From contig OZ024756.1 of the NCBI GenBank assembly GCA_964016885.1, forward strand, positions 6,820,001 to 6,884,000: DNA of 64,000 bases. Reading direction: 5' to 3'. The stretch comes from Eledone cirrhosa. Its lineage: Eukaryota. Of this stretch, positions 1,320 through 24,762 are shown in pieces. The notes under the pieces were generated by a model. It was given only the letters and a program-made list of their open reading frames with translations. It was not told where the DNA came from and searched no databases. The position numbers and the translations under genes are program-made. Every line of letters starts with the position of its first letter. Within the stretch, counting starts at the first letter, position 1.

Positions 1320-1851
1320 AAACAAATAACGAAACGAAATTAAATTTCGTTTCGCTTCTAACTCACTTTTGTATGACTGACGCTTAAACAATTAAGTTAA
1401 AGTGTACATCTACATATGTATACGGAAGTACTAGTATGCATATAAATACACACATGTATACATATGTACATGTACCGAGTTTTTCACTAGACACTTTACA
1501 GTGAGTGTCCAGCTAGTCTGTATGTAAACAAACAGACGAACCGGGTTTTAAAGTCATACGAGTGTTCAAGGAAACACACTTCCTCTATTCTCCAGAGAGC
1601 CAGACAGGAATATTGGACTAGTTTCGATGTTATTACATCTCATCAGCAATATTTACCTATCTTCCGGCTTCTCTGGAGAATTGTAAAAGCACATATCGTT
1701 ATATGCTTTTTCTATGAAAATCAGTAGTGGGCAGACTAACTTGCATAGAACGTGAGTCATTGTACGCGCCGGTTCAGCGGAAACGATAAAAACAAATAAC
1801 GAAACGAAATTAAATTTCGTTTCGCTTCTAACTCACTTTTGTATGACTGAC
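1320..1851 (-). mobile_element. About 470-bp hammerhead-containing unit with terminal direct repeat (pLTR/retrozyme-like)
   Basis: aacaaataacgaaacgaaattaaatttcgtttcgcttctaactcacttttgtatgactgac at 1321 and 1791; internal hammerhead; homologous to 24250-24760. Confidence 0.7.
1609..1653 (-). ncRNA. Minimal type I hammerhead ribozyme
   Basis: Minus strand: aatattg CTGATGA gatgt-aata-acatc GAAAC ta GTC caatatt; perfect stems I and II, GUC triplet; stem I extends via tctccagag/ctctggaga. Confidence 0.9.
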
Positions 1852-2348
1852 ACTCATACACACACACACACATATATACACATATATATGTGTATATAAA
1901 TACACATATACACATACATATACACATACATACATACGCACATAAATATCAACACATCCATACATACACATATACAACCACACACACATATATACACACA
2001 TATATATATGGAAAAATAAATATATATATACATATATATATATACATACATATATATATATATATATATATATATATATATATATATATATATATATATA
2101 TATATATATATATATACATGCATACACATACATAGCTATACACACATACATATACATACATACATACATGCACGTCGGGGTCAAACAATTTCCTATATAC
2201 ATATATAATATACACATATATATAAACCGATTACGCACACACGTGTCCCTGTGTTTAACTATTATTAACTTTGCCTTTAATTATTGAGGGGTCGACTAAA
2301 TAAAGTACCAGTAATAAACTGTCCTTGTGTCTAGAGGAGAAATCATTG

Positions 2349-3190
2349 CTAGTAGTAGAAGTGGTAGTAGTATTAGTAGTAGTAGTAGTAGCAGTATTAG
2401 TAGTAGTAATGGTGGTAGTAGTAGTAGTAGTAGTAGTAGTAGTAGTAGTAGTAGTAGTAGTAATGGTGGTGGTAGTAGTTGTAGTAGTAGAAGTAGTAGT
2501 AGTAGTAGTAGTAGTAATGGTGGTAGTAGTAGTAGTAGTAGTAGTAGTAGTAGTAGTAGTAGTAGTAGTAATGGTAGTAGTGGTAGTAGTAGTAGTAGTA
2601 GTAGTAGTAATAGTAGTAGTAGTAGTAGTAGCAGTAGTATTAGTAGCAGTAGTATTAGTAGTAGTAGTAGTAGTAGTAATAGTAATGGTGGTAGTAGTAG
2701 TAGTAGTAGTAGTAGTACTAGTAGTCGTAGTAGTAGTAGCAGCCATTTTCTACTTACCCACCACGACAATGTCACCAGTAGCCAACTCTACCACTACCAC
2801 TACCACCATCACCACCACCAACACCACTCCCCCTACCCCAACCACCACTACTACCACCACCACCACCACCACCCAAATACTATCCCCCCCCAACACCACC
2901 ACCACAATTTCAGCAGTAGCCAACTATACCACCACCACAATATTACCAGTAGCCAACTCTACTACCATCACCATCACCACCACCACCACCACCACAATGT
3001 CACCAGTAGCCAAATCTACTACCACCACTATAACTACCACCACCAACACCACCAACACCAACACTACCACCACCACCACCACCACCACCACCTCCACCAC
3101 TATTACTACCACCACCACTACCACCACTACCACCGCCATCACTATCCCCACCGCCCTCACCCCACCACCACCACCACCACCACCACCATT
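2349..3190. repeat. (TAG)n followed by (CAC)n trinucleotide low-complexity tract
   Basis: Direct inspection; explains the poly-T/V/S/H ORFs. Confidence 0.95.
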
Positions 3191-3834
3191 ATCTAGTTAC
3201 CCATCACTCCCAGTAAATATATTTTATGAAGGTTTATCAACTTGACAATCTGCAGTGGTTCAGTTTATATAAATCTACGTTAAAACCCTTCATTTATAAG
3301 AGCTACTTGTTCCTTACCGGGAATCTAGTCTAAATAAACACTGTGTGGTCCCCTCAATATAACAAACATTTTAGACTGAACGATGGCTTCTAAGAGAGAA
3401 GACCCCTGAGATGGTTCCTTCCGTTTTAATTAGATTTTGATAATCAGCGGAATTTTTATAGTTAAGTGGTTTTACTAAAACAGACTCAAAATAGCTAACA
3501 AACAAATATAAGGAATATATGAATACGGTACTTTGGGTAACGGTGTATGTGTTGTAGTTTGTGTATACACATACATATAGAGTTATACACACGTAGACTC
3601 ACACACACACGCATGCATATACACACATACACTCATACAAGCACACTATACCCGCCACGCCTGTATGTATATATATATATATATATATATATATATATAC
3701 GCACACGCTCGCCCACATATTTTAATCATATATATATACCCGAAACAAACCCATACAAACACACACATATTTATATATATATATGTATATATATATATAT
3801 ATATGTGTGTGTGTGTGTATATATATTTATATAT

Positions 3835-4020
3835 ACGGGATAGCAAATTATTGTTATAGGTAGTCCAGTTAGGGTACTCCGAGTAGTGGATAGTATTAAG
3901 GCTTGGAGTAATAATTAATCAAGAAAGAAGCGTGACATGGTTTGCTATAAATAAGGGCTTTATTCAATAAAGCCCTTATTGTATAGCAAACCTTATCACT
4001 CTTCTTTCTTGATTTATTAT
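3835..4020 (-). mobile_element. Short palindromic PLE-like element (hairpin about 3910-4020, tail on the left)
   Basis: aatcaagaaagaag...ttctttcttgatt inverted arms; same family as 29853-30625. Confidence 0.7.
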
Positions 4021-22532: not shown

Positions 22533-23230
22533 ATATATAGGAAAGCCGCAAGCAGAGACCCGTTTGTGCATTATATATCAGCACTTCCCCTTGGTGCTAA
22601 AACCGGATAGATAAGAAATGAACTTACGAGTATCCGAAATAAATGTAGCAAGACAGAGGACCAGATTACTCACACTGCACACTTCATAGATGTACTGAAG
22701 ACAAACAGATGCCCAACATTTACTGTGAATTGTCTTAAGAATCGAAGGCACCGTAGCGCAAGACCTCCTCTAACACCTGCTTCCTGAAATTACCACTCTT
22801 CAGCGAAGCCATAACCACAGCTCTCCGCAGAGCCGTCCGCAACTAAGAACTGGACATACCATTAGCACACTCCGGCCCTTCACTCTGTGGATACCTATCT
22901 AAAACCTAATCTAGAGACAACAACAACCAATGCTCGCTGACTAACTGCCCTATTCGCGATACAGGTATGTGCAAGTGGACACATGTAGTGTACCGGATTG
23001 AATGTAGCAAATGTAAGGAGTTCTATATTGGTAGCCGGATCCGACCATTCCACACACTTATTAAAGAAAACAAATACACCTTTATTCAAAAAACACATTA
23101 TCAAATGCAGAAACACCAACAAGATTTAACTGTCAATATTGAAGCCAGAGAGAGAAATGTGGGCATTTTAAGAATTAAGGAAGTCTTGCTAAAACATAGA
23201 CTCAACCCACAAAAAATAATAGATTAGAAC
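22533..23230 (+). pseudogene. Degenerate Penelope-like ORF 3' part (RT thumb to GIY-YIG)
   Basis: IYRKAASRDPFVHYISALP (YRK..D..H..S..P motif); VVYRIECSKCKEFYIG; LRIKEVLL..RLNP. Confidence 0.8.
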
Positions 23231-23322
23231 CCAGCACACAATACTTAACTAAAAAAAGACACACGCACGCACATAACCTAAACAACATCTCATGCAAAAG
23301 AAATATGATTCCATGAAATAAT

Positions 23323-23447
23323 TGTTTTTACTTTTGGCACAAGGTCAGCAATAACCCAGTTCATTACTGGTACTTTACTTTATCGCCCCCGTAAGGATGA
23401 AAGGCAAAGTTAACCTCGGCGGGATTTGAACTCAGATTTGAACTCTA
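23323..23447 (-). mobile_element. 5'-truncated SINE (family A) with 18-bp TSD; further fragment at 23598-23738 (+)
   Basis: TSD atgattccatgaaataat at 23305 and 23449. Confidence 0.82.
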
Positions 23448-24011
23448 AATGATTCCATGAAATAATACATCGGCAATTGACGTCATTCTCGTGAATACCG
23501 AAATAACCAACAAAAAGCGCTTGAAAACGGTTTAAGAAATTTAAATCTAAATCAAATCCCAAAGAGAAGATACCGGAGCATTATATATATATATATAATG
23601 CATAGTTACGCCCCTTTACGATCTGAGTTCAAATCCCGCCGAGGTTGACTTTGCCTTTCATCCTTACGGGGTCGATAAAATAAAGTACCAGTAATGCACT
23701 GGGTAATTGCTGGCCTTTGGCCTGATGTAGAAACAATTATATATATATATATATATATATATATATACTCAAGGTTTAGCAAATAGGAAAAAGTTTTTAA
23801 ATAAATTTTAAAAAATTCGCTTATTTTGAAACTTTTTCTTATTTGCTAAACCTTGATTATATATGTTCTGGCTCATTAATTTATTAACCTGCCATTGAAC
23901 CACATTAGCATATGGTTGGACAATACATGTGGCCCTAGACGCTTTTTGCGTGTAGGATTATATACTTTATTATATATATATATATATATATATATATATA
24001 TATATATATAT

Positions 24012-24762
24012 ATAAGTATAAGTATGTATACGTAAATACATATATGTATGCAGACGTACAGTAGTATGTATATATATAAATACATGCACATATATATATA
24101 TATATATATATATATATATATATATATATATATATATATGTACGTATGGATTTACCGAACATTTATTATAATCTTCGATTTGTTTGTAAACAAACATCCC
24201 GAATTAAGCTGTATACATATATGTATGTATGTATACATACTTATATTTAAGTAACAGCCGTACTAAGATTGAGAAATGAAATTTCTTTTCATTTTTTCCA
24301 TTTATCGTTTTGGTGCGCCCGGCCGATTAACTCACTCGATATGCAAATTAGGCTGCTCAGCCGTTAATATGCATAAGGAAAGTATATACTTTCATCTAGC
24401 AGGAAGGTATACGGTGCTGACGATAGCTAATAAGCTTGAAACTAGTACACTGTTCCTTTGTCAGTGTTGAACAAGTGAGCAACGATGGTTGCTAAAGACT
24501 GTACGGCCTAATTCGGGATGTTTGTTTACAAACAATCCGAGCATTATAATAAATGTTCGGTAAATCTCTTCGTACATATATATATATATATATATATATA
24601 TATATATATATATATATATATATATATATGTGCATGTATGTATATATATACATACTACAGTACGTCTGTATAAATATATGTATGTACGTATACATACTTA
24701 TAGTTAAGTAACAGCCGTGCTAAGAGTGAGAAATGAAATTTCGTTTCATTTTTTCCATTTAT
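24012..24762 (+). mobile_element. PLE-like unit combining inverted (24012-24207/24509-24701) and direct (about 457-bp period) repeats
   Basis: gtaacagccgt at 24251 and 24708; internal hammerhead. Confidence 0.75.
24411..24453 (+). ncRNA. Minimal type I hammerhead ribozyme
   Basis: acggtg CTGACGA t-agct-aata-agct-t GAAAC ta GTA cactgt. Confidence 0.82.

What the first reader, a model, noticed from the sequence alone, without database searches (positions are those of the whole stretch)
1320..24762. Two diverged roughly 460-470-bp units show wholesale compensatory change in the ribozyme
Seen: the reverse complement of 1320-1851 aligns with 24250-24760 (tttatcgttt..ccggc..actcac..tatgcaa.ttag.ctgc; tgtttgtttaca). 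The hammerhead stems differ completely (aatattg/caatatt vs acggtg/cactgt; gatgt/acatc vs agct/agct), while the core, the AATA loop and GAAAC-TA-GTH are conserved. Both units end in a terminal direct repeat. Inference: selection on RNA structure in a non-coding mobile unit.
Basis: partly seen in the sequence, partly recalled or inferred. Interest (0 to 1): 0.72.

Follow-up and report, generated by a model that had tools for sequence, protein, structure and literature searches.

The report
Penelope-copied ribozyme repeats with chimeric insertions
The two stretches are diverged copies of an abundant non-coding repeat that keeps a predicted self-cutting RNA fold and lands in TA microsatellites as back-to-back arms, a few of them joined directly to Penelope-type retrotransposon fragments, which likely shows the enzyme that copies such repeats.

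Summary
Real, but partly overstated. Units A (1320-1851, minus) and B (24209-24760, plus) are homologous outside the ribozyme. In the hammerhead stems 11 of 22 positions differ, yet 10 of 11 pairs are kept, four by double changes (P about 0.001): compensation, not 'wholesale' change. Predicted pairing with covariation extends over the whole 420-540-nt unit. The family has at least 38,706 cores genome-wide. The 'terminal direct repeat' is a truncated neighbouring unit, not an LTR. Copies end at two fixed sites in (TA)n. Of 83 resolved insertions, 64 carry an inverted arm; 49 of 54 resolved inverted arms end at the short site, none at the long one. Of 89 arms, 68 read through the cleavage site. 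Four loci join a repeat arm head-to-head to a Penelope-like ORF fragment. Verdict: non-LTR retrozymes, likely moved in trans by Penelope-like enzymes; a known kind with unusually direct mechanistic evidence. Cleavage, expression and circular RNA are untested.

The parts
1320..1851 (-). Unit A (subfamily A1): one 470-nt monomer (1320-1789) plus a 62-nt truncated previous unit (1790-1851); no inverted arm seen in this copy
1609..1653 (-). Type I hammerhead motif of A: stem I, CUGAUGA at 1646, stem II with AAUA loop, palindromic ACUAGU in stem III; predicted cut after 1616
   Evidence: sequence; cleavage not tested
1320..1390 (-). Tail of A between the short 3' end (about 1385-1391) and the long 3' end (1320); holds the 3' strand of helix P (1371-1377) and a hairpin before the long end
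1553..1559 (-). 5' strand of predicted long-range helix P in A (pairs with 1371-1377; two double changes against B)
1290..1319 (.). (TA)n target tract at the 3' end of A
24209..24760 (+). Unit B direct arm: truncated previous unit (about 24209-24303) plus a 457-nt monomer ending at the long 3' end, followed by (TA)n
24013..24213 (-). Inverted arm of B (90.7% identical to 24502-24706), joined head-to-head with about 5 bases of overlap, ending at the short 3' end in (TA)n
24411..24453 (+). Type I hammerhead motif of B: CUGACGA at 24417, U-U at the base of stem II, palindromic ACUAGU; predicted cut after 24447
   Evidence: sequence; cleavage not tested
24706..24760 (+). Tail of B between the short and long 3' ends; holds the 3' strand of helix P (24714-24720; its 5' strand is 24501-24507) and the pre-end hairpin
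23972..24012 (.). (TA)n target tract at the end of B's inverted arm

Best explanation
A and B are two subfamilies of one non-coding tandem repeat with a type I hammerhead motif (a non-LTR retrozyme) that inserts into TA microsatellites and is likely copied in trans by Penelope-like retrotransposon proteins. Shown: homology, stem compensation, two fixed 3' ends in (TA)n, random 5' truncation, head-to-head arms with one short and one long end, arms that pass the cleavage site, and four junctions with Penelope-like ORF fragments. Inferred: a GIY-YIG/reverse-transcriptase dimer cuts both strands of (TA)n. Each DNA end primes cDNA inside the RNA, one at the short site and one at the long site; both sites are U-rich unpaired linkers 3' of hairpins in the predicted fold. 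The two cDNAs are then joined by microhomology. The two arms can come from different RNA molecules (the chimeras). The template is an uncut multimer or a ligated circle, not a cut linear monomer. The ribozyme would cut mainly as a dimer through its palindromic stem III.
For: Two fixed ends: exact long-end junction of family A 1,869 times, control 0. Among 83 resolved insertions, 64 have an inverted arm over 20 bp, 7 a short-site stub and 12 neither. Of 54 inverted arms with a resolved end, 49 stop at the short site, 0 at the long site, and 50 run into TA repeats. Junctions: 35 of 64 overlap by 1-9 bases, 11 are blunt, 13 carry inserts, 5 overlap by over 20 bases. B: 4 of 8 loci with a core in both arms are short/long, 4 have one unclassified end. 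An autonomous Neptune-like element in the same genome shows the same asymmetry (L136). Partial tandems, an inverted truncated copy and a tail at one end are Penelope hallmarks (PMC8557442, passages); the tail lies between two reverse-transcription start sites and uncut RNA is the main substrate (PMC11167929, main text). 68 of 89 direct arms pass the cleavage site; 5 of 147 5' ends lie within 5 bases of it against 3.5 expected, p=0.27. Of 20 retrozyme loci with a Penelope-like protein hit, 4 have the hit within 109 bases of an arm with no TA tract between, and all 4 are head-to-head. In L364 the repeat arm ends at its long site and the Neptune-like arm at the shorter of that family's two ends. 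52 of 54 units in five arrays on four contigs are identical.
Against: No autonomous element with sequence homology to A or B was found: six Neptune-like 3' UTR sets, one Hydra-type family plus scattered Hydra-type UTRs and 16 orphan hammerheads gave nothing convincing; only 50 of 150 scored GIY-YIG places (of 10,597 candidates) were read. The chimeras involve four different families, one lacks a TA end (L145) and one is rearranged (L189); deletion between neighbours could mimic them. The end rule has exceptions (L012 ends short/short; 5 of 54 inverted arms end elsewhere), and the long-end-anchored sample cannot count short/short cases. Only 31 of about 155 pairs coincide column by column between the separate minimum-energy folds of A and B. 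The B ribozyme alone folds no better than shuffles (z -0.69). Older arrays show periodic shared variants, so DNA-level duplication or mixed templates also act.
Confidence: 0.85

Rival explanations
1. A and B are only the truncated 3' ends (pseudo-LTRs) of an autonomous Penelope-like element not yet found, so they move in cis and the arrays arise later.
For: The anatomy is that of Penelope-like ends (PMC8557442 passages); other hammerheads in this genome do sit in such 3' UTRs (F5; L371); only a small part of the genome's Penelope-like families was read.
Against: In 243 loci no unit continues upstream into a co-oriented ORF without a TA tract between. Upstream of a unit is another unit, up to 31 in a row. 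Arms average about 790 bases, longer than one unit.
Confidence: 0.08
2. The arrays are satellites grown by unequal crossover from single inserted units, as proposed in bioRxiv 10.64898/2026.07.22.740005; retrotransposition only seeds monomers.
For: Periodic shared variants in older arrays: C1:5.74 Mb (30 units), C1:14.04 Mb, L182, L183, L184.
Against: Both arms of young insertions are long and identical (18 of 18 units at C1:30.83 Mb), and five arrays on four contigs share one haplotype in 52 of 54 units. This fits insertion as multimers, with DNA-level change added later.
Confidence: 0.15
3. The apparent compensation is a by-product of divergence and alignment rather than selection on structure.
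For: Effectively 2-3 independent lineages; the consensus structure was derived from the same alignment; 'further pair types' is no higher than shuffles (465 of 500).
Against: The ribozyme stems are defined in advance: 10 of 11 pairs kept after 11 changes, P about 0.001. Further independent double changes occur within A (A-U to U-A in A2) and within B. Slid controls give 27-48% paired cells against 97%.
Confidence: 0.05

Closest known systems
Metazoan non-LTR retrozymes (Cervera and de la Pena 2020, PMC7229834; passages read)
   Same: Non-coding tandem units with a type I hammerhead, low GC, highly self-paired monomer. The single-pair stem III with palindromic loop matches their axolotl HHR_Amex1 and the U-U at the base of stem II matches HHR_Amex2; both cut better as dimers. 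They proposed Penelope-like elements as helpers and circular RNA as template.
   Different: Units here are 420-540 nt (170-400 reported as RNA). (TA)n targeting, two fixed ends, inverted arms and chimeras are not in the passages seen ('microsatellite' and 'inverted' occur 0 times in its main text). Expression and circles are not shown here.
Retrozymes as non-autonomous Penelope-like sequences (Li, Clavereau and Pollet, bioRxiv 10.64898/2026.07.22.740005; parts 1-3 of 5 read, supplements closed)
   Same: Same conclusion on the helper class.
   Different: Their evidence is co-occurrence and pLTR homology in Xenopus, with arrays attributed to unequal crossover. Here no pLTR homology was found, but the insertion scars and chimeras point to the same class, and arrays appear to insert as multimers.
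EN+ Penelope-like elements, Neptune and Hydra clades (Craig et al. 2021, PMC8557442; passages and section 11) and Poseidon PAc (Frangieh et al. 2024, PMC11167929; parts 1-2 of 4)
   Same: Partial tandems, inverted 5'-truncated copy, tail at one end, (TA)n bias, two internal reverse-transcription start sites, uncut RNA as substrate.
   Different: No ORF; tail about 55-75 nt rather than 30-40; PAc in vitro showed no strand difference in start site, whereas insertions here pair one short with one long end.

Membership tests
Type I hammerhead ribozyme | CUGANGA, GAAA and NUH core with three stems, open at stem I | tested here: met
   stem III is one canonical pair with a 2-base loop as a monomer, so a dimer is predicted; Rfam match below cut-off
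Type I hammerhead ribozyme | Self-cleavage after NUH | not testable with these tools
   no assay possible; only contigs were available
Non-LTR retrozyme | Non-coding tandem repeat with a type I hammerhead in each unit | tested here: met
   arrays of 2-31 units, 420-540 nt; no ORF of 140 aa or more within either unit apart from microsatellite read-through beside A
Non-LTR retrozyme | Dispersed, high copy number | tested here: met
   38,706 core matches, control 0; copies on many contigs
Non-LTR retrozyme | Expressed as linear and circular monomer RNA | tested here: inconclusive
   no listed run is on record as RNA; one 499-base contig in run X5 closes on itself as a 468-base cycle, which a tandem array would also give
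Penelope-like element (autonomous) | ORF with RT and GIY-YIG endonuclease | tested here: not met
   none in the units or co-oriented upstream of them in 243 loci
Penelope-like element (insertion type) | 5' truncation, partial tandems, inverted upstream copy, tail at one end | tested here: met
Penelope-like element (insertion type) | Microsatellite targeting as in Neptune and Hydra | tested here: met
   50 of 54 resolved inverted arms and 1,869 exact long ends abut (TA)n
Non-autonomous derivative of a named PLE family | Sequence homology to the helper's pLTR | tested here: not met
   no convincing match to the families sampled; sampling was small
Plant LTR retrozyme | Long terminal repeats with type III hammerhead | tested here: not met
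   the repeat is a variable partial unit and the ribozyme is type I

The most novel reading that the evidence does not exclude
Each insertion is made by a Penelope-type enzyme dimer loaded with two separate RNAs, one started at the short site and one at the long site. The retrozyme RNA, probably as a circle copied round and round, is recognised by its conserved two-domain fold rather than by sequence, so it can share an insertion with RNAs of several Neptune- and Hydra-type families. The chimeric insertions are direct fossils of that partnership.
Probability: 0.4. Interest if true: 0.75.

Novelty: new member of a known kind. Interest (0 to 1): 0.55.

Why it matters
Which enzyme moves animal retrozymes, whether their arrays are made at insertion, and how Penelope-like elements form inverted copies with a one-sided tail are open questions in the papers read. 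This family gives tens of thousands of scars with a near-strict short/long rule, named candidate helpers from chimeric insertions, and two diverged RNAs whose shared predicted fold places both start sites. That makes the cis signal and the two-RNA model directly testable in the existing in vitro Penelope assay.

Tried and rejected
Rfam scan: dominated by microsatellite matches to miRNA models. A Pfam accession recalled for a Penelope-associated domain was not in the library. The pattern was meant to exclude A and B and did not; it was used as a near-total count. Search for the autonomous parent by homology: six Neptune-like UTR sets (a few 12-60-base matches slightly above the shuffle maximum were judged chance), Hydra-type UTRs (only TA-rich matches), hammerheads with other stem II lengths (112 and 205 matches; of 40 loci fetched, 16 that looked unrelated to A/B were examined and none had an adjacent Penelope-like ORF or unit homology around the ribozyme). 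Circle against uncut multimer: a private haplotype was traced to seven places, but five arrays were identical to each other, so a homogeneous donor array cannot be excluded. Pile-up of 5' ends at the cut site: suggested by the first 30 loci, not upheld in 89. Expression: no RNA holder listed; run X1 (RNA only by guess) laid 0 contigs; neither is evidence. L365, L366, L367, L368, L369 and L370 were checked as possible chimeras and are not. Co-folding two ribozyme copies did not return the double-hammerhead as the minimum-energy form; only the ACUAGU duplex energy (-5.4 kcal/mol) was obtained. The host was not identified by any search.
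Full report
Observation. The window lies in a 3.0-Gb, microsatellite-rich genome; no call names the host, and 'animal' is my inference from the element types. Unit A (1320-1851, minus) and unit B (plus strand, around 24209-24760) each carry a type I hammerhead motif. They are homologous: score 187 against 35 +/- 5 for 500 shuffles, and 77 against 22 +/- 4 for the part 5' of the ribozyme alone. In the stems defined in advance by the hammerhead model, 11 of 22 positions differ, 10 of 11 pairs survive and 4 pairs changed on both sides; random placement of 11 substitutions keeps that many pairs with P about 0.001. 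Five pairs are unchanged and the pair closing stem II is U-U throughout B, so 'differ completely' is too strong.

Family. The core pattern occurs 38,706 times, control 0; 16,036 have the AATA loop and 5,316 match a pattern whose first 100 listed places were all subfamily A2-type. A copies are young (98-99% for the best 40 scored); B copies are older (90-92%). Units are 465-472 nt in A (432 with an internal deletion) and about 420-540 nt in B and B-like subfamilies, in arrays of up to 31. Whole monomers fold far better than shuffles (z -11.0 for A, -5.9 for B; a self-complementary TA-rich segment inflates this). Fourteen representatives give a 74-pair consensus with 20 doubly changed pairs and 97% of cells paired, against 27-48% when partners are slid. 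Double changes lie in stems I and II, a 5' hairpin and a long-range helix P. Caveats: 2-3 lineages, a structure derived from the same alignment, and only 31 of about 155 pairs coinciding between the separate folds of A and B.

Insertion anatomy. Arms end at one of two fixed sites about 70 nt (A) or 55 nt (B) apart and run into (TA)n. I took 90 of the first 100 listed exact long-end junctions on contig C1 (of 1,869 in the genome; one already analysed and the last nine were left out) and dropped one duplicate. Of 89, 83 were resolved: 64 have an inverted arm over 20 bp, 7 a short-site stub, 12 neither. Of 54 inverted arms with a resolved end, 49 stop at the short site and none at the long site. 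Window unit B is such a case: an inverted arm at 24013-24213 ends short and the direct arm ends long. An autonomous Neptune-like element shows the same asymmetry (L136). These are the hallmarks described for Penelope-like elements (PMC8557442, passages), and the tail was shown in vitro to lie between two reverse-transcription start sites (PMC11167929, main text). In the predicted folds both sites fall in U-rich unpaired linkers 3' of a hairpin, within domains closed by helices P and Q; that these are the recognition signals is inference.

Template. 68 of 89 direct arms pass the predicted cleavage site and 30 pass two; 5' ends do not pile up there (5 of 147 against 3.5 expected). The template is therefore not a cut linear monomer. 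Eighteen of 18 units across both arms at C1:30.83 Mb are identical and differ from other loci by 3-21 substitutions within A2; 52 of 54 units in five arrays on four contigs share that haplotype. This favours insertion as multimers, but it does not separate a circle from an uncut transcript of a homogeneous donor. Older arrays carry periodic shared variants, so later DNA-level duplication or mixed templates also occur. The palindromic stem III and the U-U pair resemble the axolotl ribozymes that cut well only as dimers (PMC7229834, passages), which would leave long uncut RNA.

Helper. The genome holds many Penelope-like elements: 10,597 GIY-YIG candidates, 150 scored, 50 read, falling into six families with RT, GIY-YIG and, where I read the linker (L121-L124), the CX2-5CxxC form of Neptune type; several end in (TA)n. 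There are also 62,666 candidates for a CxCX5C Hydra-type protein. None sampled shares sequence with A or B. However, of 243 retrozyme loci, 20 have a Penelope-like protein hit; 16 are at least 295 bases away across a TA tract, and 4 abut an arm within 109 bases with no TA between, all four head-to-head. L364 (C1:41.49 Mb) is the clearest: a 1,267-base A1b arm ends at its long site in (TA)n; on the other side 41 bases of A1b lead straight into a truncated Neptune-like F2 copy that runs through its stop codon and UTR to the shorter of F2's two ends and (TA)n; the missing upstream ORF is not on the far flank within 2.6 kb. L030/L371 joins an A1 arm (short end) to another Neptune-type element that ends in (TA)n. 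L145 joins A2 to an F4-like fragment without a TA end, and L189 joins B to a Hydra-type fragment in a rearranged locus. I read these as insertions whose two arms were copied from different RNAs; deletion between neighbours remains possible, especially for the last two.

Comparison and novelty. This works like, and meets the genomic tests for, a non-LTR retrozyme; RNA-level criteria are untested. It inserts like a Penelope-like element but is not an autonomous one. The helper class has been proposed (PMC7229834) and argued from phylogeny (bioRxiv 10.64898/2026.07.22.740005, parts 1-3 of 5; supplements closed and may bear on this). Searches of the paper library returned no title or abstract start reporting the short/long rule or chimeric arms for retrozymes; most subscription papers are not covered and most hits were seen only as listings. 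Earlier notes of this scan report the two-arm rule for other families and genomes; they are unchecked AI notes, seen after my own tally, and gave the Hydra lead. Verdict: real feature, new member of a known kind, with useful mechanistic evidence; interest 0.55.

Noticed in passing
window 14779-16600, minus strand: Four 457-nt tandem units with a type I hammerhead with a very long stem II, bounded by (TA)n at both ends; an 83% identical array lies in L122. A separate retrozyme family with no tested link to A/B.
   Followed up: partly
window 10807(-), 10968(+), 24986(+), 29093(-), 29744(-), 39912(-), 60540(+), 63883(+): Eight hammerhead motifs of other families, mostly about 75-100 nt upstream of (TA)n ends; 10700-11060 is a head-to-head pair with one short and one longer end.
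   Followed up: partly
window 5348-6519: Head-to-head pair of truncated Hydra-type Penelope-like fragments (CxCX5C linker); a young family with copies 93-97% identical and open frames up to 834 aa.
   Followed up: partly
L091-L138 (family F1 3' ends): A Neptune-like family whose 33-nt tail is separated from the body by an internal (TA)n tract.
   Followed up: no
L367 (C1:104.18 Mb), junction of the two arms: About 66 bases of GC-rich foreign sequence captured between the two retrozyme arms; source not identified.
   Followed up: no
run X5, record 9: A single 499-base contig that closes as a 468-base cycle of a family A monomer at depth 2.4, in a run of unknown kind labelled with another coded organism; circle or tandem array cannot be told.
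   Followed up: no
e.g. L324, L326, L327, L330: Scattered single hammerhead-like motifs with the same GAAACTAGT palindrome but little or no stem II; no ORF or unit context found in 16 examined.
   Followed up: partly
window 33185-36361 and 18713-20530, plus strand: Long reading frames that look like LINE endonuclease/reverse-transcriptase remnants (motifs recognised from memory; not scanned).
   Followed up: no
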